Below, piece after piece: positions 2,528 through 58,923 of a stretch of 64,000 bases of DNA (the first letter of the stretch is position 1; each line of letters starts with the position of its first letter). Source of the DNA: a bacterium (GTDB lineage: Bacteria; Patescibacteriota; Microgenomatia; UBA1400; PJMF01); assembly GCA_017431625.1 (NCBI GenBank), contig JAFRKQ010000010.1, positions 17,503-81,502 on the forward strand, given 5' to 3'. Below the pieces are notes generated by a model that worked only from the letters and a program-made list of their open reading frames with translations, had not been told where the DNA came from and made no database searches. A program made the translations under genes and the position numbers.

Positions 2528-2544
2528 TCCTTCTTAAGCTACCT

Positions 2545-2582
2545 ATATTATATCATACTATGTCAAATTTGTCAAGAGGCAA
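2545..2582 (-). promoter_or_regulatory. Consensus sigma70-type promoter (TTGACA-17-TGATATAAT), minus orientation, drives malQ
   Basis: Reverse complement reads gcctcTTGACAaatttgacatagtatgaTATAATa. The element is shared with 11 other copies in the window. Confidence 0.6.
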
Positions 2583-2624
2583 TTTTGCCAGTGAAATTGG
2601 CCAACTTTGGTGTATAATAGCGGC

Positions 2625-7204: not shown

Positions 7205-7355
7205 AATTGACCCTTTGTTTTTTTCTGTACTGAGTTTGTCACCAAAAACCAGAGGTACGCGTTTAACAAATGTTTAACAAGTGTTTAACAAAGTCCAAAT
7301 TTGCTGGACAAATTTTAACTTGTTTGCTGGACAATAATTAGCGAGTTGGTCATCA

Positions 7356-16758: not shown

Positions 16759-17511
16759 ATGTCAACAGTCAACGACAAGCCAGCGCTCTTAGTTCAAGGA
16801 GATTTCCAGTTTCCTTACCATTACAAATTTCCCGGTCAAGAGAGCAGTGAGGTGATTCTTTATGCCACTCGCGAGTCTCGACGACTGCTTTGGCTGCGCT
16901 ATACCTGGTTGATATTGGCCCTCTTAATCACCTATATCACCATTTATTGGTTGTGCTTTGAGCTGGGTCCTACCATTCTGGAGACTGGTCCGTGGCTACA
17001 TCTGGCACTGGTTTGCGCTCTGGTGAGTAGTACCTGTGGTTTGGCGGTCTACTATTATCTATCGCTGACCTGGCGCAAGACAGTGGGGATTCTTACCAAT
17101 TACCGCTTGGTAAAAATTGTCCAATACGGACTTTTTAATCACGCCACTCAGACTCTACCGCTTGATGAGGTGGTGGACACCAGTGTTGGCAATAAAAAAA
17201 TTTGGGAACGACTGCTTGGGGTCGCTACTTTTACGGCCCGCTCGAGCGCAGCTAGCTCTGGTCTGGCCACCGATGATGCTAGTGAGGGACGCTTTCGGAT
17301 CAACAAAAAGTATTTTTATTGGGAAAATATTGAGTATGGTGAGGACTTTGAAAACTATCTACACAAAATCCTCAAGCTCAGACATGACAATCCGATGCTA
17401 GATTTAACCTATTTTCGCCCATTTATCGGTAATTTAAAGGGAGATGAGCGTGAGCGGTTTATGCAGCGGTATCCTCAGTACTGGAGTCGCTCAACACAAA
17501 TTGCCCCTTGA
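16759..17511 (+). CDS. Membrane protein with bacterial PH-like domain (YdbT-like)
   Basis: 250 aa with TM helices. RBS AGGAG. The stop overlaps the -35 of promoter A. Confidence 0.45.
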   Translation: MSTVNDKPALLVQGDFQFPYHYKFPGQESSEVILYATRESRRLLWLRYTWLILALLITYITIYWLCFELGPTILETGPWLHLALVCALVSSTCGLAVYYYLSLTWRKTVGILTNYRLVKIVQYGLFNHATQTLPLDEVVDTSVGNKKIWERLLGVATFTARSSAASSGLATDDASEGRFRINKKYFYWENIEYGEDFENYLHKILKLRHDNPMLDLTYFRPFIGNLKGDERERFMQRYPQYWSRSTQIAP

Positions 17512-17537
17512 CAAAAAAGCAATAGTATGATATAATA
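17500..17537 (+). promoter_or_regulatory. Consensus promoter (TTGACA 17508-17513, TATAAT 17531-17536)
   Basis: aaATTGCCCCTTGACAAAAaagcaatagtatgaTATAATatagggt. Followed 7 nt later by a 32-codon ORF and then murA. Confidence 0.6.
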
Positions 17538-17643
17538 TAGGGTATGAAAGAACAATTAAGAGTCTGTCGAGTCCAGTCAAGCCGAGCTGATATCGGTCTT
17601 GGTGAGTATCAAGTAGCTTGGCTTTTTGCCTGGAGTCAATGAA

Positions 17644-22323: not shown

Positions 22324-22351
22324 CGCATGATAAAATCATCCTCTCCAGGCT

Positions 22352-22392
22352 AAATTGCCACTTGACAAAAACGTAATAATATGATATAATAT
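22352..22392 (+). promoter_or_regulatory. Consensus promoter (TTGACA 22363-68, TATAAT 22385-90)
   Basis: aaATTGCCACTTGACAAAAacgtaataatatgaTATAAT. Followed by an about 85-nt noncoding segment containing CTTAAG and CTGACTGGAC. Confidence 0.6.
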
Positions 22393-22479
22393 GGGTCTTA
22401 AGAATTGGTATTAAGGCGTAAAGCCTGACTGGACAAAACTGAGCAGCAAAATTAACTAAATTATGGTACAATAGGGCGT

Positions 22480-24489
22480 ATGCAGAAATTGAGTTTAAAT
22501 CAAGCCAGTGATAAGTCTGTGGCCAAACCTGTCCGTTCCCAGGCAAAAAAGTCTGATTGGTCACTTCCATGGTGGGGCTGGGTTTTGTGTGTTTTGATGA
22601 GTTTAGTGATATTTGTTCTGACCGTGGCGGTGACTATTTATCTGAGTGTCAAAAGTAGTATTACCAAATTCCGCCTTCAAGCCACTGATACCTATATTAA
22701 AGCTCAAGCGGCCTATCAGGCCTTTAAGGATCAAGACCTAGAACTTACCCGCACTAGGCTCGCCGAGGCAAAAACCAGTCTGGACTATACCCAAAAACGT
22801 TTTGCTCGCTTGCAGTCACCACTGACAGTTTTGGGTTACAAACAATATTTTGCTGATGGTCAGGTGCTGATGGCGGCAGCCAGTGAAGGTTTGGATTTGG
22901 GCGATCACATCATTGAGATTGTGGAGCCAGCCGCGGAAATGTTGGGCTTTACTGATGACAAGCAGGAAGATGGCGATGGCACCACTGAAGATCGGGTCAA
23001 ACGTCTTTTGGATACACTCCAGATTATCGGACCGCAACTAGACGAGGTGATTACGGGCTTAGAGGGCATTAGTACCCATCTCAAGACTATCGACCCTCAA
23101 AACTATCCCGAAAAATTAGGCAAATTTTTCGGCGCCAAAATACTCCTCGGCTATCTCGGACGGCCAGAATTGGCTGATTTTGCCGTGCGTGAGCAAATTG
23201 CCAGTGGCCAACAGTCGCTGACAGATGCGATTGGCACGCTGAAGGAATATCGGCCGATTCTCGACAAGATCCCCCAAATGGCTGGTGGGACGGGCGAGAG
23301 AATGAAGTATCTAGTCATCTTTCAAAACAACAACGAACTGCGCCCCACCGGTGGTTTTTTGACCGCTTATGCCTTGATTTATATTGAAGATGGCAAGGTC
23401 ATGCCGGAAAAATCCGATGATATTTATGAGTTGGATAAGAAGTTTAAAAAGAAAATTACCATTCCGGAAAAACTGGGCAAATATCTCACCACTGAAAAAT
23501 ATTGGAACTTACGTGACATGAACATTGATCCGGATTTCTACCGCTCCATGACCACCTTCATTGAAAATTATGATCTGGTACCTGACGAACCACATGATAT
23601 TGATGGCATTATTACCATTGATACGATGGTTTTGACTGATTTGATAGATCTTTTGGGCCCGATACAAGTGGAGGGCTATGGTGAGTTTTCAACCGAGCCG
23701 GATGCTAAATATAATGCTCCACAAATTATTGTGGCTTTGTCGGAGATTATTACTCGTCCTACGCCTTACATTCGCGAAGATCGCAAGGGTATCCTCGGGC
23801 CGATGATGAAGGCAATGCTAGAGAAGGTTTATGGCGCCAGCAAGGATAAATTTCCTGGACTTTTTGCCACCATGCTCAAGCTGATTGATGGTCGGCATAT
23901 CCAGACCTATTTTATTGATAAGCAGCTTCAAGAGTCGGCGGAAATGATTAATTTGGCCGGACGGATGATTCCTCCCGATGATGGCAGCGACTTTATGGCC
24001 ATTGTGGATGCCAATCTAGGTGGTGCTAAGTCCAATCTTTTTATTGACTATGAAGTTGAGCAGACCATTCTCCCACCAGAAAACGGTATCCTCGAAAAGC
24101 GGGTGGTGATCACCTATACCAATTCTCAGGCTGGCGACAATTGTAATCTCGAGGCCGGTCTTTTATGTCTCAATTCGGTCAATAATGATTGGTTCCGCCT
24201 GTATTTGCCTGAGGGCGCCAAGCTTATTAGTGCTAAGGGCTTCAAGGGTGAGGCCGAGACTTACGATGAAAATGGCTTTACCGTGATTGATGGCTACTTT
24301 TCTCTCAATCCCAAGAGTACCACCAAAATCGATCTTGAGTACACTGTCCCATATGAGGATACTCAAGAGTATCGCCTCAAGATTTGGCAACAAGGTGGCT
24401 TGCGCGAGGTACCACATCTACTTGATGTTAATGACAACCAAGAACAGATCGTGGTTACTGGTGATACCAACTATAAAGCTAAGTTTTGA
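22480..24489 (+). CDS. DUF4012-domain membrane-anchored protein
   Basis: 669 aa. YLVIFQNNNELRPTGGFLTAYALIYIEDG is the DUF4012 signature. N-terminal TM. A second -10 (TACAAT 22467-72) sits 7 nt before the ATG. Confidence 0.65.
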   Translation: MQKLSLNQASDKSVAKPVRSQAKKSDWSLPWWGWVLCVLMSLVIFVLTVAVTIYLSVKSSITKFRLQATDTYIKAQAAYQAFKDQDLELTRTRLAEAKTSLDYTQKRFARLQSPLTVLGYKQYFADGQVLMAAASEGLDLGDHIIEIVEPAAEMLGFTDDKQEDGDGTTEDRVKRLLDTLQIIGPQLDEVITGLEGISTHLKTIDPQNYPEKLGKFFGAKILLGYLGRPELADFAVREQIASGQQSLTDAIGTLKEYRPILDKIPQMAGGTGERMKYLVIFQNNNELRPTGGFLTAYALIYIEDGKVMPEKSDDIYELDKKFKKKITIPEKLGKYLTTEKYWNLRDMNIDPDFYRSMTTFIENYDLVPDEPHDIDGIITIDTMVLTDLIDLLGPIQVEGYGEFSTEPDAKYNAPQIIVALSEIITRPTPYIREDRKGILGPMMKAMLEKVYGASKDKFPGLFATMLKLIDGRHIQTYFIDKQLQESAEMINLAGRMIPPDDGSDFMAIVDANLGGAKSNLFIDYEVEQTILPPENGILEKRVVITYTNSQAGDNCNLEAGLLCLNSVNNDWFRLYLPEGAKLISAKGFKGEAETYDENGFTVIDGYFSLNPKSTTKIDLEYTVPYEDTQEYRLKIWQQGGLREVPHLLDVNDNQEQIVVTGDTNYKAKF

Positions 24490-29826: not shown

Positions 29827-30699
29827 TTAAAGGGTTTCGATTTTGATGTTGGCATCATACTCAGGCATTTTGACAAAAGCCAAGTATTTTTCGGTGGTCG
29901 TCAGGCGTTTGTGACCCACAATTTGGGACACATAGACCATCGGCAAACCAGCGCGCAATTGCTCAACAATGAAAGTGTGACGCAGGTCATTGACCTTGAC
30001 ACCTGCTCCCAAGCCCGCCAAACGGAAGTAACGATCCAGTGACTTGCGGATATTGCGCACCAAAAATGGCTTGCAGGTCTTGGTCAAAAAGACCGTCTTT
30101 TCCCGGGCACGCGGGCGTACCTTGAGGTAAGCCTGAAGCGTCTTTTTGGCCGTCTCATTAAGCGGCACCTTGCGATTGAGATGAGTGTCTTCAGTCTCAA
30201 TATTGATAATTCCCCGATCAAAATCGAGGTCATCAAGCTTGAGATTGGCCAACTCACTAATGCGCATCCCAGTCTGGAGGAGAGTTTCCACCACGGCCAA
30301 CATCCGGACGTCACCACGGCAGGCATCACGCAGGGCGCGATACTCAGTTTTGCTCAAAACCCGAGGTGGAGTCTGCTCACATTGAGGTTGTGACACCAAA
30401 CGTGAGGGATTATCCGGGATGTAGTGATTATCACTCAAATAGCGGAAGTATGACTTGACCGAGTTGACCTTGCGTGAGACCGTTTTATCTGAGCGGTAAA
30501 CTTTGCCCAAATAATCTTTGTAGGCCTCAAGGTCATCAGCGGCCACGCTGGCAATTTCGTTTTTGCCCCGACCAGCCAAAAACTCGGTGAGTTGCTCGAT
30601 GTCTTTGGTGTAAGCGATGATCGTGGCGTGAGCCTTGCCAGAGGCACTTAAGTAATCGTTGAATAGCTTTTCGCGATCCTGAATTGTCAGATTTGACAT
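29827..30699 (-). CDS. Tyrosine site-specific recombinase (XerC/XerD/phage-integrase family)
   Basis: 290 aa. C-terminal LRHTFIVEQLRAG..VSQIVGHKRLTTTEKYL, with the catalytic R..HxxR..Y arrangement. Confidence 0.8.
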   Translation of the reverse strand: MSNLTIQDREKLFNDYLSASGKAHATIIAYTKDIEQLTEFLAGRGKNEIASVAADDLEAYKDYLGKVYRSDKTVSRKVNSVKSYFRYLSDNHYIPDNPSRLVSQPQCEQTPPRVLSKTEYRALRDACRGDVRMLAVVETLLQTGMRISELANLKLDDLDFDRGIINIETEDTHLNRKVPLNETAKKTLQAYLKVRPRAREKTVFLTKTCKPFLVRNIRKSLDRYFRLAGLGAGVKVNDLRHTFIVEQLRAGLPMVYVSQIVGHKRLTTTEKYLAFVKMPEYDANIKIETL

Positions 30700-35532: not shown

Positions 35533-35653
35533 TCCCATTAGATCAGACATTGACTCTCAGCCCCGAGGCCAGAAACTTCGGGGTTATGTTTGGACCACTG
35601 ACCGATAGCTCCACCCCCAAGCAATTGTCGTCACATTCCGGTTTTATTGACTT

Positions 35654-35693
35654 ATATTATATCACAAAGTATCACTTTTGTCAAGTGGCAATT
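35654..35693 (-). promoter_or_regulatory. Consensus promoter, minus orientation (points at the 3' end of the DUF3048 gene)
   Basis: Reverse complement ggcgtAATTGCCACTTGACAAAAgtgatactttgTGATATAATat. Confidence 0.5.
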
Positions 35694-35751
35694 ACGCCTG
35701 GGGTAGCAAACTGGATCAGAATTTGCCATTTTTTGTAGTATAATAGTGACT

Positions 35752-39821: not shown

Positions 39822-40910
39822 ATGTATCCGCTGGTACAAAACATCTCGCTTTTTCTTCTGGGGGTTGGCTTTACGCCATTTGGCTTGTGGATTCTAGCCG
39901 GCCTGATTGTGGCCAGTGTAATTAGCCTGCTGCTTTTTTTTCAACTCTTGGCCAGTCTCACGTGTCAGCTGCTGGCCAAAAAATATCCTCACTCACACCG
40001 CTTGGAGTTATGGCGCTTGATTATTGATAAGTTTCGTCCTAGTTGGATTGGTTTTAATGGTGTTTACTACGCGATTTTGGTGTTGCCGCTGGCTGGCGAA
40101 ATCAAAATCTTTTTTACTGTTGGCTATTTAGTCTTAATGACGCTATTTTTGATTGACCTTTTGCGGACTATTATTTTGGGAGCGATCCGCATCTATCTGG
40201 AAAAGCGCGGCAAAGTCTCTCAGGAAGCCATCGAGACGGTCATTAATTTTTTCCGTGTGGTGAGCACGATTTTACTCTGGCTTTTGACCGGGGTGATTGT
40301 TTTGGTGATTTTAAATGTTGATATCAAGGGTCTACTTAGCGGTCTGGGTATTGCCTCGATTGTTGTGGCTTTTGGCTTCCAACAGGTGCTCAAAGACATT
40401 TTGGCTTTTTTTACGCTTTATATTGACCGTTCCTTTGCGGTGGGAGACTATGTGACTTTTGGTGATTATGAGGGTACTATCAAGGAAATTCGCATCAGGA
40501 CTACACGGATCAAGGCTCTTTTGGGCAATGAGCTGATTGTCCCCAATGAGGTCCTTATCGGTGGTGTGATTCAAAATTATAATCGCTTTGGGCAACGCCG
40601 GGTCTCATTTACTTTCAAAACACGAGTAGTTCCGGCCGATAGACTCCAGGCTGCCTTGGAAGAAATCCGCCAGACTTTTGCCAATGGGGACTTAGGTGAG
40701 CGGGTGAGCCTCACCAGTCTCACCCTCGAGTCAATCACAGATTATGGCCTACAAATCAAGATAATTTTCCGTTTTAGTTATATTCACGGCCAAAAAAACT
40801 ACACTCAATATCTCCACAAGCGTCAAGAAGTTAACACCCTGATCCTCAACACTCTGGCCAAATACCAAATTCCCTTGGTAGAGCTCTCTTGTGCTCACAC
40901 CCAGGCATAA
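39822..40910 (+). CDS. mscS: Mechanosensitive ion channel (MscS family)
   Basis: MscS beta-domain signature GDYVTFGDYEGTIKEIRIRTTRIKALLGNELIVPNEVL. Leaderless start 7 nt after TATAAT 39809-14; that promoter is embedded in the previous gene's 3' end. The track start is 39777. Confidence 0.75.
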   Translation: MYPLVQNISLFLLGVGFTPFGLWILAGLIVASVISLLLFFQLLASLTCQLLAKKYPHSHRLELWRLIIDKFRPSWIGFNGVYYAILVLPLAGEIKIFFTVGYLVLMTLFLIDLLRTIILGAIRIYLEKRGKVSQEAIETVINFFRVVSTILLWLLTGVIVLVILNVDIKGLLSGLGIASIVVAFGFQQVLKDILAFFTLYIDRSFAVGDYVTFGDYEGTIKEIRIRTTRIKALLGNELIVPNEVLIGGVIQNYNRFGQRRVSFTFKTRVVPADRLQAALEEIRQTFANGDLGERVSLTSLTLESITDYGLQIKIIFRFSYIHGQKNYTQYLHKRQEVNTLILNTLAKYQIPLVELSCAHTQA

Positions 40911-40948
40911 TTGCCTCTTGACAAAAGTGATGTTTTGTGATATAATAT
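40909..40948 (+). promoter_or_regulatory. Consensus promoter (TTGACA 40918-23, TATAAT 40941-46) facing the 3' ends of minus-strand tRNAs
   Basis: taATTGCCTCTTGACAAAAgtgatgttttgTGATATAATatagg. Followed by ATTAAG..CCTTAAGG and then CTGACTGGAC at 40975-84. Confidence 0.55.
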
Positions 40949-41026
40949 AGGATATTAAGGGACACACCTTAAGGACTGACTGGACAATCAAAATCATCAC
41001 CTGGCCAATAAAACGCTGTGCGTGAG

Positions 41027-41100
41027 TGCGTCGGGCGGGGCTCGAACCCGCGACATCCTGCTTAGAAGGCAGACACTCTATCCAACTGAGTTACCGACGC
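41027..41100 (-). tRNA. tRNA-Arg: tRNA-Arg (anticodon TCT)
   Basis: Reverse complement GCGTCGGTAACTCAGTTGGATAGAGTGTCTGCCTTCTAAGCAGGATGTCGCGGGTTCGAGCCCCGCCCGACGCA. Confidence 0.85.
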
Positions 41101-41130
41101 CAGATTGTAAGCTAGATGTGAAAGTTCGGG

Positions 41131-41214
41131 TGCCCCAGGCGAGACTCGAACTCGCATGACCTTGCGATCGGCAGATTTTAAGTCTGCTGTGTCTACCATT
41201 CCACCACCAGGGCC
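41131..41214 (-). tRNA. tRNA-Leu: tRNA-Leu (anticodon TAA), long variable arm
   Basis: Reverse complement GCCCTGGTGGTGGAATGGTAGACACAGCAGACTTAAAATCTGC..GCGAGTTCGAGTCTCGCCTGGGGCA. Minus -10 TGTGGTATAAT at 41222-41232. Confidence 0.85.
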
Positions 41215-41265
41215 TGTGAGGTATTATACCACAAAAGCGATGACTTTTGGGTGTATAATCAAGCC

Positions 41266-42800: not shown

Positions 42801-42811
42801 GCCAAGCCTTA

Positions 42812-43306
42812 TTATACCACATCCTCGTCAATCTTGAGAGTGTAAAGCCGACGCAAAATCCCATCAGACTTATACTCCGTTGACTCTTCAAGAAACGTCC
42901 AGCCAAATTTTTCGTACAAACCCTGGTGGCGCGAGTGTAAATACAGCTGTCGCAGGCCAAATTGCCGTGCGTGCCCAGGGACAGCGGCCATCAACTGGCG
43001 AAAATAGCCGCAGCCACGATACTCGGGAGCAATAAAGGCAAAACCAAACCACGGTGTCAGATCAGGGCGGGTAAAAAGATCATTGGGAATGACTTGATAG
43101 AAGCCCACCAAAGTCTCACCCAGATAGGCCAAAAAAGTATAAGGCACACGGTCAGGGCAAATACTATGAGCCATATAAAGGGTCACTTGCTCGCGGCTCA
43201 TCCCAAATTCCTCACCCCACCAGCCATGCTGCCAGCAAACAACCGGCTCAAAGGCAGGATCAGTGCTATCAACAAGCTGGCGAAAGGTAAGCTTATGATC
43301 TGACAT
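42812..43306 (-). CDS. GNAT-family N-acetyltransferase
   Basis: 164 aa. Acetyl-CoA binding region RQLGLRQLYLHSRHQGLYEKFGW. Minus -10 TGGTATAAT at 43311-43319. Confidence 0.7.
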   Translation of the reverse strand: MSDHKLTFRQLVDSTDPAFEPVVCWQHGWWGEEFGMSREQVTLYMAHSICPDRVPYTFLAYLGETLVGFYQVIPNDLFTRPDLTPWFGFAFIAPEYRGCGYFRQLMAAVPGHARQFGLRQLYLHSRHQGLYEKFGWTFLEESTEYKSDGILRRLYTLKIDEDVV

Positions 43307-43541: not shown

Positions 43542-43599
43542 GTCCTGATGATAACACCTCTGCCAATTCCTTGTCAAGAGTCAAAATATCTTATATTAA

Positions 43600-43638
43600 T
43601 TTGCTACTTGACAAAATTGATAAAGTGTGATATAATAG
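43600..43638 (+). promoter_or_regulatory. Consensus promoter (TTGACA 43608-13, TATAAT 43631-36) facing the 3' end of a minus-strand gene
   Basis: aaTTTGCTACTTGACAAAAttgataaagtgTGATATAATagg. Its downstream segment is homologous to the segment after promoter E (50033-50135). Confidence 0.55.
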
Positions 43639-43717
43639 GACACAACTATAAATAGTCGGTGAAATAGCTAAGGGTGGATACTCGCCGGTGAGAGGCTGAT
43701 TGACATCTGGCCATTGG

Positions 43718-44302
43718 CTAAAAGAGGCTGTCTTGAGTGCCAGCCGAGTGCGTGGGCTTAAAACTAAAATCCACCGGGCAGTTGACCAGGCGATTCCATT
43801 TGTTATAAAACTTGATCTCGCCGTGATTGCGACCATAATCATACAGCTCGCGGGTGAGCTTGACATCTTGATTGCAATAAGCTGCCAACTCGTCAAAACG
43901 CTTCTCGTTGTAGTAGCGGATGGCATCCAGTCCATCGCCAGTTTTGTGATCATTGAAAGTACCACTAGCACAAGCGTCTAGACTTATCCGGTGGCCAGAG
44001 GACTTTTTGATCTGGAGCATCAGGTCAAGAGTAGGAAATTTGCTGACATCACCGTCATAATAATTGGTAAATGTGGGCATGTCAAAGTGATCAATATTAA
44101 AGCCAATCAAAACATCAGCTGACTCAAGAATAGGGAAAAGCTTTGGCAGATCATCTTCAAAAAAACCCATAATTTTACCCTCACCCTCAAAGCCCTCGCG
44201 CACACATATTCCAACGTAAGAAATCCCCAGCTGTTCAGGGAAAAAACCACCCACTTGATCAAATGCTTTTTTGGTCTCGACATCAAGTACCACTTGTTTC
44301 AT
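43718..44302 (-). CDS. DEDD-family 3'-5' exonuclease (RNase H-like fold)
   Basis: LDVETKK (Exo I), GFNIDHFDMP (Exo II), YCNQDVKLTRELY (Exo III, DEDDy type). AAGGAGAAG RBS before Met36 of the track ORF. Confidence 0.55.
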   Translation of the reverse strand: MKQVVLDVETKKAFDQVGGFFPEQLGISYVGICVREGFEGEGKIMGFFEDDLPKLFPILESADVLIGFNIDHFDMPTFTNYYDGDVSKFPTLDLMLQIKKSSGHRISLDACASGTFNDHKTGDGLDAIRYYNEKRFDELAAYCNQDVKLTRELYDYGRNHGEIKFYNKWNRLVNCPVDFSFKPTHSAGTQDSLF

Positions 44303-44400
44303 GCTTCTCCTTGCTTTTTTGTTTGGACCCCTTTTTTTACCATGAAACCTCACAAAAATCAAGAGACAAAAGTAGTTGATTTTGCGGTATAATACACGGT

Positions 44401-46113
44401 ATGTCATTTTTGCGGCGTTTTATCCGGCTTCCGAGTTATCTTTTTTCCAATCGCTGGCTGGCCTCACAACAACGCTCCATTATGTCCGCCGCCAGTGTCA
44501 TTACCGCCGCCAATATTCTGGTGTCACTCTCGGGACTGCTTCGCGATCGGTTTATGCTTTCGCTTTACGCTGGTCACGAAGAACTCCTCCAGGCTTATGA
44601 CGCTTTTCGGGTAGCCTTTCAGGTGCCAGATTTGATTTACCAATTGCTGATCGTCGGGGCTTTATCGGCCTCGTTTGTGCCAATGTTTACTTTTCTCAAG
44701 CGTCGTGATAAGGCCAATGCCTTTCGCATGACTAATATTTGCATGAATTATCTGTTGGCTTTTTTTCTTGGTCTGTCAGTTTTGATCATGATTTTCGCCC
44801 CGCAGATCACTCGGGCTCGCATTGGCGATGCCTACTCAAGCGAGCAAATCCAGACTGTCATCAATCTCACCAGGCTCATGATGGTGGGGCAGTTCTTTTT
44901 TGCGATTTCCAGTTTTTTTACCGGCATGCTGCAAAGTTACCAGCGTTTTGTCATTCCCGCCCTAGTGCCACTTTTTTACAATGCCAGTATTGCCGTGGGT
45001 GCCTGGGCGCTTTTTCCTTATTGCGGTATTTACGGGGCGGGCATCGGCGTGGTTTTTGGGGCTTTTGCCCATATGGCTATCCAATTGCCATTTGTCCGCC
45101 AGCTGGAGTGGGCCTATCAGTGGTGCTGGGATTGGAGCCAACATGGGGTCAAACAACTTTTTGCGATGATGCCGGCGCGCACTCTCACTCTGGGCATGAG
45201 CGAGGTGCAAAGTTTTGGTTTGTCCTATTTTATCACCAGTGTTGATCGCGTGGGCTACACGATGTTTCTTTTGGCGCGGACACTGATCAACTTGCCAATT
45301 CGCTTTGTCGGGGTCCCGATCGGTCAAGCAGCCTTGCCTTTTTTGTCCAATCTTTCTGACGATGACCGGCTGGAGCGCTTTAAAAAAGTGGTCCTCCAAT
45401 CACTCAATCAAATTGCTTATCTAGCCTGGCCAATGGCGGTAATGTTGATGATCTTGCGCATTCCCACTGTGCGGCTGGTATTTGGCACCCGATCATTTAC
45501 CTGGGAGCGGACGATATTGGTGGGGCGACTGATTGCCTTTATGGCGATTTCCATTCCGGCCCAGGCGATGTTTCACCTGCTGGTGCGCGCTTTTCACGCC
45601 CTGCGTGACACGCTCACGCCCTTTTTGATTTCCCTGTTTACAACCTCAGTGTTTTTTATCGGCTGCGGGCTGGCAATTAAACTGCCAAGTAATCAGCTTT
45701 ATGGGATTGCTATTAGTATCTCACTCACCATGATTGCCGAGAGTCTAGTGTTTATTTTTTTGCTCGATCGCAAACTCAAGGGACTGATAAACTTCAACTT
45801 TCTGGCCACCCAAGCCAAAATCCTGCTGGCTAGCGGTCTAACAGCGATTGCCCTGTATATCCCCTATAAATTGCTAGACAATTTTGTCTTTGAGACCACC
45901 AGAGTCGTACCATTGATCATGCTCACTGGTATTACTGGTGTCGTTGGCCTGAGTGTTTACATTGGTTTATCTAAGCTCTTCCGCATCGAGGAGATGAATA
46001 TCCTCATTCACCTTTTTACCTCCTTCACGCGCAAACCCAAGCAGACAGTCCAGCTGGCCCTGCCACCTACCGAAATCGTCTCTGACCCCGTTGACAGTAA
46101 TGATTTAGTTTAG
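44401..46113 (+). CDS. murJ: Lipid II flippase MurJ (MviN family)
   Basis: 570 aa polytopic protein. Leaderless: TATAAT 44388-93 lies 7 nt before the ATG. Confidence 0.8.
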   Translation: MSFLRRFIRLPSYLFSNRWLASQQRSIMSAASVITAANILVSLSGLLRDRFMLSLYAGHEELLQAYDAFRVAFQVPDLIYQLLIVGALSASFVPMFTFLKRRDKANAFRMTNICMNYLLAFFLGLSVLIMIFAPQITRARIGDAYSSEQIQTVINLTRLMMVGQFFFAISSFFTGMLQSYQRFVIPALVPLFYNASIAVGAWALFPYCGIYGAGIGVVFGAFAHMAIQLPFVRQLEWAYQWCWDWSQHGVKQLFAMMPARTLTLGMSEVQSFGLSYFITSVDRVGYTMFLLARTLINLPIRFVGVPIGQAALPFLSNLSDDDRLERFKKVVLQSLNQIAYLAWPMAVMLMILRIPTVRLVFGTRSFTWERTILVGRLIAFMAISIPAQAMFHLLVRAFHALRDTLTPFLISLFTTSVFFIGCGLAIKLPSNQLYGIAISISLTMIAESLVFIFLLDRKLKGLINFNFLATQAKILLASGLTAIALYIPYKLLDNFVFETTRVVPLIMLTGITGVVGLSVYIGLSKLFRIEEMNILIHLFTSFTRKPKQTVQLALPPTEIVSDPVDSNDLV

Positions 46114-46132
46114 TCCAGTCAGTATATCCCAT

Positions 46133-46172
46133 ATTATATCACAAGTAGTCATTTTTGTCAAGAGGCAATTAC
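46133..46172 (-). promoter_or_regulatory. Consensus promoter, minus orientation, pointing into the murJ 3' end
   Basis: Reverse complement ggcgtAATTGCCTCTTGACAAAAatgactacttgTGATATAATat, followed at +12 by ATACTGACTGGACTAAA (plus 46113-46122). Confidence 0.5.
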
Positions 46173-46209
46173 GCCTGGACATTTGTTGCCAATGTGCTAT
46201 AATCATTTT

Positions 46210-47079: not shown

Positions 47080-48054
47080 ATGCCACGCGAAGCAATTGAT
47101 CAGTTTCGACAACGAATTATGGATGGCAATCCGCAAGAATTGCTGGCTAGATATCGTGGCGATGAGATTTTTAATCAGCTTGTAGAACAACACCAGATTG
47201 GCACGAATCCTGACGGCAGCCCGCAGATAGTCCTCACCCTCAATGAGGCTGGCGTGAGTACACTTTTAGAGGGACTAGCTCCATCAGCACTGCTAGCCAA
47301 TCACAGCGACAGTCAATTTTTACGCGACATGTTTGGCTCTGTCCCAGAATTAGCGCGTACTTACCAGCAATTTGAGCAATTTGAAGGTAATCTTAGGGAA
47401 ATTGAACAGGATATTGAGAATGAAATAGTTCGTCTTGGTCAAAAATATAATTTTCCTGAAAATGTCAATACTTTGCCGTCTCCTGCACGCGAACAAGAGT
47501 CTTTGCGCATTGCCACTATTTTGTGCCGTGAACTCGCGAATCGCAATCAGTATCAGTATGACCAAATTTATGCTAACAATAATGAGTACATGGCTATTCC
47601 CGCTAAGTACCAGCGTACGTATGAGGAAGGATTGGTGGCCAATCAAAAGCGCGGGATGTGTACCTCGTTTTCATCGTTCTATCAGCATGCTCTCGAACAT
47701 TATGGAGTGAGCTCGGTTTTACTTAATGGGACGCGCTTGAATTTATTTGGGTCTTCCGATGGTGACAGTCCGTCAATTGCTAGCCGACACGCCTTTGTCG
47801 GTGTCAGAGTGAGTGGCGACAGCGAAAATCCCATCTACCATATTTTTGACCCAACACAAGGGCGTTACGGCGAAGGAACCTCAGATTATAGCTATTATGT
47901 TGAGCCCTCGGCATATACATATGCCAGCAGTATGCTGCGAGGCGCATTTACTGGTGGTTATCAACAATACCATCGTCTCAGTGCATGTCAGGCCTTCCTC
48001 AAGACAATCAGCGGTACCAGCATTGATCGTGACATCATCGACCAGATTAAATAG
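47080..48054 (+). CDS. Hypothetical protein, possible transglutaminase-like/papain-fold cysteine peptidase domain
   Basis: The order KRGMCTSFSSFY (Cys), SRHAFVGV (His) and IFDPTQG (Asp) fits a transglutaminase-like core. This is inference only. Confidence 0.45.
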   Translation: MPREAIDQFRQRIMDGNPQELLARYRGDEIFNQLVEQHQIGTNPDGSPQIVLTLNEAGVSTLLEGLAPSALLANHSDSQFLRDMFGSVPELARTYQQFEQFEGNLREIEQDIENEIVRLGQKYNFPENVNTLPSPAREQESLRIATILCRELANRNQYQYDQIYANNNEYMAIPAKYQRTYEEGLVANQKRGMCTSFSSFYQHALEHYGVSSVLLNGTRLNLFGSSDGDSPSIASRHAFVGVRVSGDSENPIYHIFDPTQGRYGEGTSDYSYYVEPSAYTYASSMLRGAFTGGYQQYHRLSACQAFLKTISGTSIDRDIIDQIK

Positions 48055-49989: not shown

Positions 49990-49992
49990 TAA

Positions 49993-50031
49993 TTTGCTAC
50001 TTGACAAAAGTGACATTGTATGATATAATAC
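49993..50031 (+). promoter_or_regulatory. Consensus promoter (TTGACA 50001-06, TATAAT 50024-29)
   Basis: aaTTTGCTACTTGACAAAAgtgacattgtatgaTATAATacg. The transcribed segment 50033-50135 has no ORF. Confidence 0.55.
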
Positions 50032-50107
50032 GGGTGAATGGCAAGAGTGCCGGTGAGAGTTTGTAGGGTCTAATGATCGTGAGGCTAGTTTTTTGCTGGC
50101 CAAAAAG

Positions 50108-50132
50108 ATAGGCCCCTGCTAATTAAAGCAGG
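50108..50132. terminator. Hairpin GCCCCTGC-taattaaa-GCAGGGGC; on the minus strand it is followed by CTATCTTTTT, so it terminates the phosphomannomutase gene
   Basis: Strong GC stem 30 nt downstream of the minus-strand gene's stop. It is also the likely 3' end of the plus-strand small-RNA candidate. Confidence 0.5.
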
Positions 50133-50160
50133 GGCATACCAAGCTTGAAAGCTAAATGAA

Positions 50161-51591
50161 TTAGTCAAAAGCGTGGGTATTGACGCCTTGACTCCAGTCA
50201 ATCTCCTCGTGAGACGAAAGGATTTTTTTGAGGAGTTTTTTGAGGGCCTCGTACTCTTTTTTGGTTTTGGCCTCAAACTTGATGGTAATATAAGGACCAT
50301 TTTGGGAGGCGCGGATCGTCACCATTTGCGTGGGTGTATCCAGACGAATACCATCAATGGTGTTGTAATCGGCCTTGGGGAATTCCTTCTTGAGGTCCTT
50401 GGTAATCACGTTTTTGATGAACTTAAACTTGATCTCATCAGCCAGACCCAATTTGATCTCGGGACTGGTGGTAAACTTAGGCAGACTGTCTACCGCCTCA
50501 CCCAGAGTCAAGCCCTTGCGCTCAAGATATTGGAGCAGGCGCAGTGAGGCATAGGCGGCATCATCATGACCAAAGAAATTGTCATTAAAGAAAATGTGAC
50601 CCGAAAGCTCACCACCAAAGGGAGCGTTGAGTTCCTTGATTTTGGCCTTGATAAATGAGTGGCCTGTAATCCACATCACTGGCTGACCACCGCGTTTTTC
50701 GATCGTTTGGCTGACGGCCTTGGAGCAGAGATTGTTGAAGACAATTGGCGCCCCGGTCATGGTGTCAAGGACATCATCAGCAAAAAGAGCGACAACACTA
50801 TCCATCCATAAAACTCGCCCAGCTTCATCGACCACGGCCATACGGTCACCATCAGCGTCATAAGCCAGACCCAAATCAGCCTCATGTTTGAGGACACCCT
50901 CACGCAGGCGATTGAGGACCTCGACCTCGGTGGGATCAGGTACGCCCAGAGGGAAATTGCCATCGGGCTTGCAATTTTGCTCAATGACACTGCAACCAGC
51001 CTCATGCAAAATCTCGGGATAGAACATGCCACTAGTGGTGTTACTGGCATCAATGACCACTTTCCATTTTTTGCGCAGGCTGAAGTTTTTGAGAATTGTG
51101 CGCAAATATGAATCAAAAATATTGACTTTATGATTGGCCGCGGGCGTGGTGGCCGTCACGAAATCTGCCTTGTTGCACAGCTCGCGAAAGGCAATCACCT
51201 CCTCGGATAGCATGGTCTCGGAATAGCCAGTACCGAGTTTGAGACCATTGTATTGGCGCGGATTGTGAGAGGCGGTGATCATGGCGTAGCCTTTGGTCTT
51301 GTATTCATAAGCGGCATAATAAACCATCTGTGAGAGGGCATAACCCATGTCATAGGTCTCAATGCCACCATCGTTGAGGCCCTGGATAAAGGCTTTTTTG
51401 TAATCTTTGGAGGTGATGCGATTGTCGTGACCGACCGCGCAATCAACGATCCGGTGGATCGAAAGCCAAGTGGCATAAGCCCGACCAAAAGTGTAGTAAA
51501 CATCGGGGTTGAGATCCACGTCCATCACTCCACGGATATCATAACCCCGAAAAATATTGGGATTGATATTGGTGACAATTTTGTAAGCCAT
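50161..51591 (-). CDS. manB: Phosphomannomutase/phosphoglucomutase
   Basis: TASHNPRQYNGLKL (active-site Ser loop). GGELSGHIFF. 476 aa. Minus promoter variant at about 51611-51650. Confidence 0.85.
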   Translation of the reverse strand: MAYKIVTNINPNIFRGYDIRGVMDVDLNPDVYYTFGRAYATWLSIHRIVDCAVGHDNRITSKDYKKAFIQGLNDGGIETYDMGYALSQMVYYAAYEYKTKGYAMITASHNPRQYNGLKLGTGYSETMLSEEVIAFRELCNKADFVTATTPAANHKVNIFDSYLRTILKNFSLRKKWKVVIDASNTTSGMFYPEILHEAGCSVIEQNCKPDGNFPLGVPDPTEVEVLNRLREGVLKHEADLGLAYDADGDRMAVVDEAGRVLWMDSVVALFADDVLDTMTGAPIVFNNLCSKAVSQTIEKRGGQPVMWITGHSFIKAKIKELNAPFGGELSGHIFFNDNFFGHDDAAYASLRLLQYLERKGLTLGEAVDSLPKFTTSPEIKLGLADEIKFKFIKNVITKDLKKEFPKADYNTIDGIRLDTPTQMVTIRASQNGPYITIKFEAKTKKEYEALKKLLKKILSSHEEIDWSQGVNTHAFD

Positions 51592-58205: not shown

Positions 58206-58790
58206 ATGAATCAAGTAGAAAAAGACACTATAGAACTTTTGCAATTGCTTGATAAGCGTTCAATCATTGGCCGCCAAATATCAATCGATGTGCTCGCACA
58301 ATTAAATAAAATGTCCACTCAACAGCTATATGTCTACGCACAACAGCAAGTTCAACATTACCTCAATTTTATGTTTGTCGGTTACGATCATCAGGCCAAA
58401 ATATATTTTCATCCCGGTAACACTGAATCAGTTGCTAAATACACTCAACATCTAATTGCAGGCAAAAATAGTGATATTAACCAAATTAAAACCGCTAGAG
58501 TATTGGGTTTAATTCTCACTCCACAAACAATTGCGCAACCATTGCAAGTGATTATTCAGGAAAACAATCGCCTTGCTTATAATTGTCTCTACCAACTGAG
58601 ATTTAAACAACTATCGCATACTGTCATTATTGGGACTGAAAATGGACAGGTGGGTCGAGTAATCACCTCAATTGTTACCATTGATCAAAAGAGAGATAAA
58701 CACGCCTCATTGCGTGACGTCAAAAAACTGTGTACACGGGCAAAAGAAATTTTAGTGGTAAATCTTGATCAACAAAAACGCGCCGCCTAG
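58206..58790 (+). CDS. Hypothetical cytoplasmic protein (194 aa)
   Basis: Own promoter TTGACTcataaaaacatcatcaatatgTTATAAT, 9 nt before the ATG. No recognised domain. Confidence 0.5.
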   Translation: MNQVEKDTIELLQLLDKRSIIGRQISIDVLAQLNKMSTQQLYVYAQQQVQHYLNFMFVGYDHQAKIYFHPGNTESVAKYTQHLIAGKNSDINQIKTARVLGLILTPQTIAQPLQVIIQENNRLAYNCLYQLRFKQLSHTVIIGTENGQVGRVITSIVTIDQKRDKHASLRDVKKLCTRAKEILVVNLDQQKRAA

Positions 58791-58892
58791 CAGCGCGTCT
58801 TAATTCTAGGCCGGACTGTCCAGGTATCTGCGTCCCGCAACCGACCAGCAAAGGTCAACGATTGATACCAATCTGACTATGCTCGGTAATCA

Positions 58893-58923
58893 CATTATAC
58901 CATAAAATTGCGATTTGTCAACT
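58893..58923 (-). promoter_or_regulatory. Strong minus-orientation promoter (TTGACA-17-TGGTATAAT) pointing into the 3' end of the 58206-58790 gene
   Basis: Reverse complement TTGACAaatcgcaattttaTGGTATAATg. The transcribed antisense segment contains CCTGGACAGTCCGG and TTAAG. Confidence 0.5.

What the first reader, a model, noticed from the sequence alone, without database searches (positions are those of the whole stretch)
22393..22440. Conserved 10-mer CTGACTGGAC (and CTGGACAA variants) just downstream of consensus promoters
CTGACTGGAC occurs three times in 64 kb, against about 0.1 expected by chance: 22425-22434, 40975-40984, and the reverse complement at 46113-46122. Each lies 12-45 nt downstream of a consensus promoter on the transcribed strand. 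In two copies it is preceded by a CTTAAG-containing hairpin (22398-22420; 40954-40974). CTGGACAA recurs at 7299 and 7323, CCTGGACAT at 46172-46180, CCTGGACAGTCC at 58812-58825 (minus transcript), and CTGGAT twice in the transcript from the 25995 promoter. This looks like a shared 5' module of a small-RNA/cis-regulatory family or a regulator binding site placed at +10 to +45.
Basis: seen in the sequence. Interest (0 to 1): 0.6.

Follow-up and report, generated by a model that had tools for sequence, protein, structure and literature searches.

The report
Shared 10-base box after strong promoters
A 10-base sequence really does recur just downstream of three near-perfect promoters in this candidate-phyla-radiation bacterium, but it is a strain-lineage-specific add-on to one subclass of the organism's standard promoter, with no sign of a conserved RNA family, and its function remains unproven.

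Summary
CTGACTGGAC occurs exactly three times (22425-34 +, 40976-85 +, 46113-22 -). Each copy lies 34, 29 or 10 nt after the -10 box of a perfect sigma70-type promoter, on the transcribed strand. The positions are not chance.

It has 11 copies in the window, among 16 perfect promoters in 64 kb. This is the consensus promoter of a Patescibacteria (CPR) lineage.

The box marks one subclass: CCAGGC-N2 upstream, ATRGG after the -10, 0-2 TTAAGR words, then the box.

- It is absent downstream of about 36 homologous promoters in related genomes, and from the orthologous murG-DUF4012 and murJ junctions.
- A promoter-plus-box scan of JGI metagenomes and IMG/VR found only two unrelated hits.
- The leaders show no shared or stable RNA fold and no Rfam hit.
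- There is no excess of degenerate copies, no dyad symmetry and no fixed position.

Most likely it is a young, lineage-specific promoter-proximal cis-element. A functionless relic of promoter-module copying is nearly as likely. Interest is modest.

The parts
22345..22434 (+). Site 1 unit. CCAGGC (22345-50), extended -35 AATTGCCACTTGACAAAA (22353-70), TGATATAAT (22382-90), ATGGG, TTAAGA (22398-403) and TTAAGG (22413-18), then the box CTGACTGGAC (22425-34).
   Evidence: The unit lies between the murG stop (22323) and the DUF4012 ATG (22480). It is absent from the syntenic 41-nt intergenic region in L122 and L123.
22464..22482 (+). Proximal leaderless-type promoter TGGTACAAT, 7 nt, then the ATG of the DUF4012 gene. 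This is the conserved, ancestral promoter of the gene.
   Evidence: L122 has TGTGGTAAAAT-7nt-ATG and L123 has TGTGGTACAAT-7nt-ATG at the same junction.
40901..40985 (+). Site 2 unit. CCAGGC (40901-06, inside the last mscS codons), extended -35 (40909-26), TGATATAAT (40938-46), ATAGGATA, hairpin TTAAGG/CCTTAA (40955-72), then the box (40976-85). The transcript would run antisense across tRNA-Arg and tRNA-Leu (41026-41213, minus strand) towards coaE (41251, +).
46113..46180 (-). Site 3 unit. GTCCAGGC (46180-73), extended -35 (46170-53), TGATATAAT (46141-33), ATGGGATATA, then the box (46122-13), which abuts the murJ stop codon (46111-13). The transcript would be antisense to the murJ 3' end.
   Evidence: The unit is identical in an independent assembly, L116. 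No cassette follows murJ in L117-L120.
17499..17636 (+). Related ATAGG-type cassette upstream of murA. Its leader carries TTAAGA and an inverted 9/10 copy of the box (GTCCAGTCAA, 17571-80) inside a long hairpin followed by a U-run.
   Evidence: (z -2.16).
35653..35701 (-). Fourth CCAGGC-type cassette, which lacks the box. Its promoter block is the closest to that of site 2 (82% over 62 nt).
2540..2584 (-). ATAGG-type cassette with one TTAAGA word and no box. It is the promoter of a GH77 4-alpha-glucanotransferase gene.

Best explanation
CTGACTGGAC is a discrete 10-bp box at the downstream edge of one subclass of this CPR bacterium's consensus promoter.

**Architecture.** CCAGGC-N2-[AATTGCCnCTTGACAAAA-N11-TGATATAAT]-ATRGG-(0-2 TTAAGR words, which can form a small stem-loop)-CTGACTGGAC.

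**Shown.**
- The architecture above.
- The non-random link between the box and these promoters.
- Its restriction to this strain-level lineage.
- The absence of any RNA-family or RNA-structure signal.

**Inferred.**
- The box, and the TTAAGR words, are kept as short conserved islands while the sequence between them differs. I therefore read it as a young promoter-proximal cis-element, not as neutral sequence.
- It was spread among a few strong promoters by copying or recombination of promoter modules.
- It is bound by a trans-acting factor after initiation. I favour a DNA-level site slightly, meaning a roadblock-type operator or a -35 look-alike: ACTGGACA against ACTTGACA. The alternative is a site on the unstructured 5' end of the nascent RNA.
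For: **Positional link.** All 3 copies lie within 34 nt after the -10 of perfect promoters, on the same strand.

**Association with the upstream element.** The box is present at 3 of 4 CCAGGC-type cassettes and at 0 of the 7 others. My Fisher calculation gives p = 0.024.

**Island pattern.**
- The box is 10/10 identical in all three copies.
- The promoter spacers are only 3/10, 3/10 and 5/10 identical, no better than the 47% background between any two cassettes.
- The segments between the -10 and the box differ in length and sequence.

**A second short module.** TTAAGR is enriched in the same early-leader zone: 6 observed against 0.23 expected, p = 2e-7.

**Inverted near-copy.** A 9/10 copy sits downstream of a fourth ATRGG-type cassette, in the murA leader.

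**Resemblance to the -35 box.** In site 1, ACTGGACAAAA matches its own ACTTGACAAAA at 10/11 (p = 0.015). TGGACA serves as the predicted -35 of the promoter at 46176.

**The cassette is the organism's normal promoter, not a transposon.**
- 16 of 31 TGnTATAAT sites carry A[AT]TTGC at the same offset, against a 1.3% background.
- The same consensus occurs in distant MAGs and in GC-33% contigs.
Against: - Only three copies are available, from 64 kb of a genome whose size is not known here.
- There are no degenerate copies, which is unusual for a transcription-factor regulon.
- There is no dyad symmetry, and the position varies (about +4, +23, +28).
- The targets are heterogeneous, and two of the three transcripts would be antisense.
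- The box is absent downstream of about 36 homologous promoters in related genomes.
- It is absent from the orthologous junctions.
- It is absent in promoter context from JGI metagenomes and IMG/VR.
- Outside their inserted stem-loop segments, sites 2 and 3 are nearly identical from the -10 to the box. Recent copying followed by insertions or deletions could therefore explain the pattern without any function.
- A relative shows the same kind of promoter-plus-leader duplication with a different leader sequence (L123, 121+ and 4288+).
- No transcription data exist. The start sites are predicted only.
Confidence: 0.42

Rival explanations
1. Functionless relic of promoter-module copying (promoter propagation or gene conversion). 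One promoter-plus-leader segment was copied to other strong promoters in this lineage. The box simply travelled with it, or is a decayed second -35 box from a tandem promoter. The differences between copies come from later insertions or deletions of a palindromic TTAAG segment.
For: - There are exact copies with no degenerate tail.
- The box is lineage-specific and missing from the orthologous sites.
- Sites 2 and 3 match 8/9 after the -10 and then 10/10 in the box. An anchored stretch after the box also matches 12/15.
- The site 2 promoter block is 79-82% identical to those of site 3 and 35676.
- Relative L123 has two cassettes sharing a different downstream module of about 27 nt.
- The box resembles the -35 region.
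- The phenomenon is documented as putative mobile promoters (PMC3488235).
Against: - Spacer identity among the three copies is at background level.
- The site 1 promoter block is only 66-71% identical to the other two.
- The loops and the inter-box segments of sites 1 and 2 are unrelated while the boxes are intact. That pattern looks like constraint.
- The sequence after the box at site 3 is native murJ coding sequence, and at site 1 it is the native proximal promoter. The shared unit therefore ends sharply at the box.
- No mechanism is known that copies a 10-bp word alone.
Confidence: 0.33
2. RNA-level module. The box is an unstructured 5' seed or protein-binding site shared by three RNAs: one 5' UTR and two antisense or small RNAs. 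It could, for example, pair with the complementary GUCCAGUCAA in the terminator-like stem of the murA leader.
For: - All three exact copies are on the transcribed strand, near the predicted 5' end.
- The box is unpaired in most of the predicted folds. In site 2 it follows a 5' stem-loop.
- A complementary 9/10 word lies in the murA leader hairpin.
Against: - No Rfam family matches.
- Folding is no better than shuffles.
- No terminators were seen on reading the three leaders.
- The murA leader is not an outstanding duplex target for these 5' segments: -32, -26 and -21 kcal/mol, against many unrelated windows scoring -35 to -40.
- Nothing is conserved in relatives.
Confidence: 0.12
3. Terminal inverted repeat of a miniature mobile element, or of an invertible promoter. 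The upstream CCAGGC/GTCCAG and the downstream GACTGG/CTGGAC would be the two ends.
For: - A 6-bp inverted pair flanks site 3 (GTCCAG/CTGGAC) and site 1 (CAGGCT/AGCCTG).
- Several cassettes point 'the wrong way', into the 3' end of the neighbouring gene.
- A tyrosine recombinase gene lies at 29827-30699.
Against: - The flanking inverted repeats are no longer than at random positions (median null score 6; sites 1-3 score 6, 6 and 7).
- No target-site duplication is visible.
- The CCAGGC of site 2 lies in native mscS codons, and the protein has the same length as in relatives.
- An independent assembly has the same orientation.
- The same promoter consensus occurs in distant taxa.
Confidence: 0.05
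4. Chance recurrence of a 10-mer.
For: About 310 10-mers recur at least 3 times by chance in 64 kb, and 960 do so in the real sequence.
Against: All three copies fall in the roughly 1% of strand-specific sequence that lies just downstream of 11 cassettes. They share orientation and the upstream CCAGGC.
Confidence: 0.01

Closest known systems
Putative mobile promoters / promoter propagation (Matus-Garcia, Nijveen & van Passel 2012, PMC3488235)
   Same: Highly similar promoter-containing segments of 50-100 nt lie upstream of unrelated genes in one genome. There are no transposase or MITE features. Copies are lineage-specific.
   Different: - Most of the similarity here lies in the functional promoter boxes of the organism's general consensus, so it may be convergent.
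- Only the site 2 / 35676 pair reaches the 80% identity over at least 50 nt criterion.
- Several copies are not upstream of a gene at all. They face the 3' end of one.
Promoter-proximal operators acting as roadblocks (for example lac O1 centred at +11; from my own knowledge)
   Same: A short, specific DNA word placed between about +4 and +40 of a strong sigma70 promoter.
   Different: - There is no dyad symmetry and no degenerate family.
- The position is variable.
- No candidate regulator has been identified, and binding has not been tested.
Sigma70-dependent promoter-proximal elements: promoter-like hexamers in the initially transcribed region, as at lambda PR' (from my own knowledge)
   Same: A promoter-box look-alike (TGGACA/TGGACT against TTGACA) sits just downstream of the start site of a strong promoter.
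   Different: Known sigma-dependent pauses are driven by -10-like elements, not -35-like ones. No -10-like partner lies at the right spacing (read from the sequence).
Promoter-bearing dispersed repeats such as Neisseria Correia elements (from my own knowledge)
   Same: Short dispersed intergenic repeats carry outward-firing promoters and can generate antisense or read-through transcripts.
   Different: Correia elements have clear terminal inverted repeats and target-site duplications. Neither is found here.

Membership tests
Sigma70-type promoter (the cassette preceding each box) | TTGACA, a 17-nt spacer, TATAAT, and a TG extension | tested here: met
   All three score 12/12 with the TG extension. 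The window holds 16 perfect promoters against 0.03 expected.
Sigma70-type promoter (the cassette preceding each box) | Demonstrated transcription start | not testable with these tools
   No transcriptome exists for this MAG. Only one CPR species has start-site data in the survey I read (PMC12641261).
Putative mobile promoter (PMC3488235) | Alignment over more than 50 nt at 80% identity or better between the promoter regions | tested here: inconclusive
   Over the 62-nt ungapped block: site 2 vs 35676, 82%; site 2 vs site 3, 79%; site 1 vs sites 2 and 3, 66-71%.
Putative mobile promoter (PMC3488235) | Flanking coding sequences are not homologous | tested here: met
   The flanks are murG/DUF4012, mscS/tRNAs/coaE, and murJ/unknown.
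MITE or other non-autonomous transposon | Terminal inverted repeats clearly longer than chance | tested here: not met
   The best flanking inverted repeats score 6-7. The null median is 6 and the 95th percentile is 8.
MITE or other non-autonomous transposon | Target-site duplication at the ends | tested here: not met
   No direct repeat is seen at the unit borders (sequences).
Invertible promoter (inverton) | Flanking inverted repeats, and both orientations present in the population | tested here: not met
   Flanking inverted repeats are not enriched. The independent assembly L116 has the same orientation. Read-level data were not available.
Curated RNA family (Rfam 15) | Covariance-model match | tested here: not met
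   Only tRNAs reach the gathering threshold. Nothing lies near sites 2 and 3 at E <= 1.
Structured cis-regulatory leader or sRNA | A fold more stable than shuffles, shared among members | tested here: not met
   z = +0.36, +0.62 and +0.67 for the three leaders, with no common structure.
Transcription-factor regulon motif | A family of degenerate copies near promoters, usually with dyad or direct-repeat symmetry | tested here: not met
   There is no excess of 1-2-mismatch copies beyond the three exact ones. The word has no dyad symmetry. Only 64 kb was searched.

The most novel reading that the evidence does not exclude
The box, together with the TTAAGR words, is the recognition signal of a lineage-specific post-initiation control system in a CPR bacterium. 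A few very strong consensus promoters launch short RNAs or leaders that share the same unstructured 5' box. Two of these are antisense to the 3' ends of tRNA or murJ genes. The complementary word sits in the terminator-like stem of the murA leader. On this reading the box couples the expression of cell-envelope genes (murA, the murG-DUF4012 region, murJ) through RNA-RNA or RNA-protein contacts.
Probability: 0.08. Interest if true: 0.7.

Novelty: new member of a known kind. Interest (0 to 1): 0.33.

Why it matters
Gene regulation in Patescibacteria (CPR) is almost unstudied. Only one species has any start-site data in the survey I read (PMC12641261).

If the box is a real cis-element, it would be one of the first candidate regulatory motifs in this group. 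It is attached to cell-envelope genes, which matter for the group's epibiotic lifestyle.

If it is a copying relic, it still documents how promoter modules are reused in a very small genome.

The larger observation around it may be of more general interest than the 10-mer itself:
- an extended -35 element, AATTGCC;
- 16 perfect promoters in 64 kb;
- many of them facing the 3' ends of genes or running across tRNA genes on the opposite strand;
- widespread leaderless genes.

Tried and rejected
1. **Conserved RNA family.** Rfam at gathering and E-value thresholds found nothing.
2. **Shared RNA structure.** Single-sequence folds are no better than shuffles.
3. **Wider distribution.** The promoter-plus-box pattern was scanned in JGI metagenomes. 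It gave 2 hits, both unrelated and without the AATTGCC cassette. IMG/VR gave 0 hits. The 10-mer occurs once in the 113 genome loci fetched by then, and no cassette in any of the related loci examined has it downstream.
4. **Orthologous conservation.** The murG-DUF4012 junction in L122 and L123 and the murJ 3' junction in L117-L120 lack the unit.
5. **Strain-level polymorphism.** L116 and L121 are 99.7-99.8% identical with no SNP in the sites, which is uninformative.
6. **MITE or inverton.** The flanking-inverted-repeat test was negative.
7. **Trans pairing with the murA leader.** The duplex energy is unremarkable.
8. **Second functional promoter, sigma54-type or ECF-type promoter using TGGAC.** No suitably spaced -10 or -12 partner was seen on reading the sequences.
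9. **Leader peptide.** Only CTG-initiated 5-11-codon frames exist, without a convincing ribosome-binding site (read).
10. **Extended homology after the box.** The evidence is marginal (p = 0.05-0.8). At sites 1 and 3 that sequence is native to the locus.
11. **Mobile copy of the hairpin segment.** No other copy exists in the window or in the fetched loci.
12. **Retrieving more of the source genome.** The 123.6-kb NCBI contig is not indexed. Only 3-kb ENA contigs were returned.

Full report
**1. Observation**

CTGACTGGAC occurs exactly three times: 22425-34 (+), 40976-85 (+) and 46113-22 (-). Only 0.08 copies are expected.

The count alone is weak evidence. 960 different 10-mers recur at least three times in this window, and about 310 do so in Markov-1 simulations.

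The positions carry the signal. All three copies lie on the transcribed strand, 34, 29 and 10 nt after the -10 hexamer of a 12/12 consensus promoter with a TG extension. Apart from the cassette core itself, only this word and (G)CCGGTGAGA(G) have two or more copies in the 60 nt downstream of such promoters.

**2.

The three promoters belong to a larger repeated feature: AATTGCCnCTTGACAAAA-N11-TGATATAAT. It has 11 copies in the window. The window holds 16 perfect TTGACA-N16-18-TATAAT promoters, against 0.03 expected.

The cassette is not a transposon-like repeat. It is the consensus form of this organism's promoter.
- A[AT]TTGC sits at the same offset in 16 of 31 TGnTATAAT sites, against 1.3% of random windows.
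- The same extended consensus occurs in Anaerolineae, Levybacteria, Shapirobacteria and other MAGs.
- It also occurs in two GC-33% IMG/VR contigs.

**3. Source organism**

- The MurJ protein of the window is 100% identical to a protein from an NCBI 'bacterium' contig of 123,587 bp.
- Independent ENA assemblies (L116, L121) are 99.7-99.8% identical to the window.
- The nearest species-level genome is a Patescibacteria MAG, JAZQJV01, at about 74% nucleotide identity in coding regions.
- More distant homologues are labelled Pacebacteria, Woesebacteria and Microgenomates.

**4. Anatomy of the three sites**

Alignment and segment-wise comparison give a common plan: CCAGGC-N2, extended -35, spacer, TGATATAAT, ATRGG, a variable insert, then the box.

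| Site | Sequence after TATAAT |
|---|---|
| 3 | ATGGGATATA-box |
| 2 | ATAGGATA-TTAAGG-GACACACC-TTAAGG-A-box |
| 1 | ATGGGTC-TTAAGA-ATTGGTA-TTAAGG-CGTAAAGC-box |

- The box is present at 3 of the 4 cassettes that have CCAGGC-N2 upstream, and at none of the other 7. My Fisher calculation gives p = 0.024.
- TTAAGR is itself strongly enriched in the first 45 nt after perfect promoters: 6 observed against 0.23 expected, p = 2e-7.
- Those six copies sit at four promoters, all of the type with ATRGG after the -10: sites 1 and 2 (two copies each), 2575- and 17508+.
- The 17508 (murA) leader also contains an inverted 9/10 copy of the box, GTCCAGTCAA at 17571-80. It lies inside a long hairpin followed by a U-run.

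**5. Gene context**

- **Site 1** lies between murG and a DUF4012 gene. It is followed by a second, proximal promoter, TGGTACAAT-7nt-ATG.
- **Site 2** overlaps the last codons and the stop codon of mscS. It points across tRNA-Arg and tRNA-Leu, which are on the opposite strand, towards coaE.
- **Site 3** abuts the murJ stop codon and points back into murJ.

The predicted transcripts are therefore one 5' UTR and two antisense RNAs.

**6. Comparison with relatives**

- In two syntenic relatives (L122, L123) the murG-DUF4012 gap is only 41 nt. It contains just the proximal leaderless-type promoter. The roughly 115-nt distal promoter with its box is therefore specific to the window's lineage.
- No cassette follows murJ in L117-L120.
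- MscS has the same length in relatives, so the CCAGGC of site 2 lies in native codons.
- The sequence after the box at site 3 encodes the native MurJ C-terminus, VDSNDLV.
- The sequence after the box at site 1 is the native proximal promoter. The shared unit therefore ends sharply at the box.
- None of about 36 homologous cassettes in related genomes carries the box.
- A promoter-plus-box scan found two unrelated hits in JGI metagenomes and none in IMG/VR.
- Relative L123 has two cassettes that share a different downstream module of about 27 nt. Promoter-plus-leader duplication therefore does occur in this group.

**7. Tests of the RNA reading**

- No Rfam family matches.
- The three leaders fold no better than shuffles (z +0.36, +0.62, +0.67) and have no common structure. 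Only the 6-bp TTAAGG/CCTTAA stem of site 2 is robust.
- Duplex prediction does not single out the murA leader as a target.

**8. Tests of the DNA-site and mobile-element readings**

- There is no excess of 1-2-mismatch copies.
- The word has no dyad symmetry, and its position varies.
- Flanking inverted repeats (GTCCAG/CTGGAC at site 3, CAGGCT/AGCCTG at site 1) are no longer than at random positions.
- No target-site duplications are visible.
- The box does resemble the -35 region: ACTGGACAAAA against ACTTGACAAAA at site 1 (p = 0.015).
- TGGACA is the predicted -35 of the neighbouring promoter at 46176.

**9. Descent or constraint?**

*For constraint.*
- The box is 10/10 identical in all copies.
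- The spacers are only 3/10, 3/10 and 5/10 identical. That is the background level between any two cassettes, 47%.
- The inserts of sites 1 and 2 share only the TTAAGR words.

*For recent copying.*
- Outside the inserts, the -10-to-box stretch has at most one substitution.
- Sites 2 and 3 also match 12/15 in an anchored stretch after the box.
- The copies are exact, with no degenerate tail.
- The element is absent from all relatives.

With three copies and no relatives of intermediate distance, I cannot separate the two. I give a functional promoter-proximal element 0.42 and a functionless copying relic 0.33. The remainder goes to an RNA seed (0.12), a mobile or invertible element (0.05) and chance (0.01).

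**10. Comparison with known systems**

The closest documented phenomenon is promoter propagation, also called putative mobile promoters (PMC3488235). Its criterion of 80% identity over at least 50 nt is met only by the site 2 / 35676 pair, at 82%. Site 2 / site 3 is borderline at 79%, and site 1 fails it. Roadblock operators, sigma-dependent promoter-proximal elements and Correia-type promoter-bearing repeats are functional analogies only. Their defining features were not met, or could not be tested.

**11. Verdict**

The feature is real and non-random. It is young and confined to this lineage, and it is a small appendage of the organism's standard strong promoter. The RNA-family reading is not supported. 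The regulator-site reading is open. Interest is modest. The surrounding promoter biology of this CPR genome is the more notable observation.

Noticed in passing
Whole window. Cassettes at 2567-, 17499+, 22353+, 26017-, 31355-, 35676-, 40909+, 43599+, 46153-, 48132-, 49992+: The window holds 16 perfect TTGACA-N16-18-TATAAT promoters in 64 kb, against 0.03 expected. Eleven of them share an extended -35 element, AATTGCCnC. A[AT]TTGC sits at the same offset in 16 of 31 TGnTATAAT sites. The same consensus occurs in Anaerolineae and other CPR MAGs and in two GC-33% IMG/VR contigs. It looks like a clade-wide extended -35 or UP-like promoter element.
   Followed up: partly
35676-, 43599+, 46153-, 48132-, 49992+, 58921-; also 26017- and 40909+: Many of the strongest promoters point into the 3' end of a convergent gene. 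Pfam supports the strand of four of those genes (DUF3048, RNase_H_2, MurJ, PGM); the ORFs 47080-48054 and 58206-58790 had no Pfam hit. Others run antisense across tRNA-Phe or tRNA-Arg/Leu. Possible roles are antisense RNAs, small RNAs or head-on transcription blocks. An inverton test based on flanking inverted repeats was negative. L123 shows the same arrangement at its 121+ cassette.
   Followed up: partly
44380-44403 (murJ), 22464-22482, 25716-, 43322-, 46195+, 48187+: Leaderless-type promoters, with an extended -10 placed 6-9 nt before the start codon, are common. The murJ promoter is conserved in four genomes, and the DUF4012 promoter in three.
   Followed up: partly
41223-41231 (-) and 42811-42819 (-): The two tRNA-Leu genes have a TGGTATAAT box ending only 9-10 nt before the mature 5' end. 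This implies pre-tRNAs with almost no 5' leader.
   Followed up: no
43599-43790 (+) and 49992-50165 (+): A second cassette subclass has the ATTTGCTAC variant. Its two members share the 11-mer GCCGGTGAGAG and further similarity over about 100 nt downstream. No convincing common fold was found.
   Followed up: partly
58775-58921 (-): Candidate small RNA of about 110 nt. It has a perfect promoter (TTGACA...TGGTATAAT) and a GC-rich hairpin with a U-run terminator, z = -2.55, and no Rfam match.
   Followed up: partly
7255-7340 (+): A convergent intergenic region carries GTTTAACAA three times at an 11-nt period, followed by TTTGCTGGACAA twice and an inverted GTCCA/TGGAC pair. It could be an iteron-like or operator-like array.
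   Followed up: no
17569-17636 (+): The murA leader forms a long hairpin ending in GGCUUUUUG, a terminator- or attenuator-like structure (z -2.16). In relatives, murA instead has a leaderless-type promoter directly at the ATG.
   Followed up: partly
L120 ends; L117 11612-11822: Relatives carry a different dispersed repeat...GTACTCAAAATGCCACACGCTAA or AATGCCACAC, at gene 3' ends. Both ends of contig L120 stop in it.
   Followed up: no
2533, 17558, 22398, 22413, 40955, 40969: TTAAGR words are concentrated 7-22 nt after the -10 of the promoters that have ATRGG after the -10: 6 observed against 0.23 expected, p = 2e-7. They may mark the start site or early transcribed region of this promoter subclass.
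   Followed up: partly
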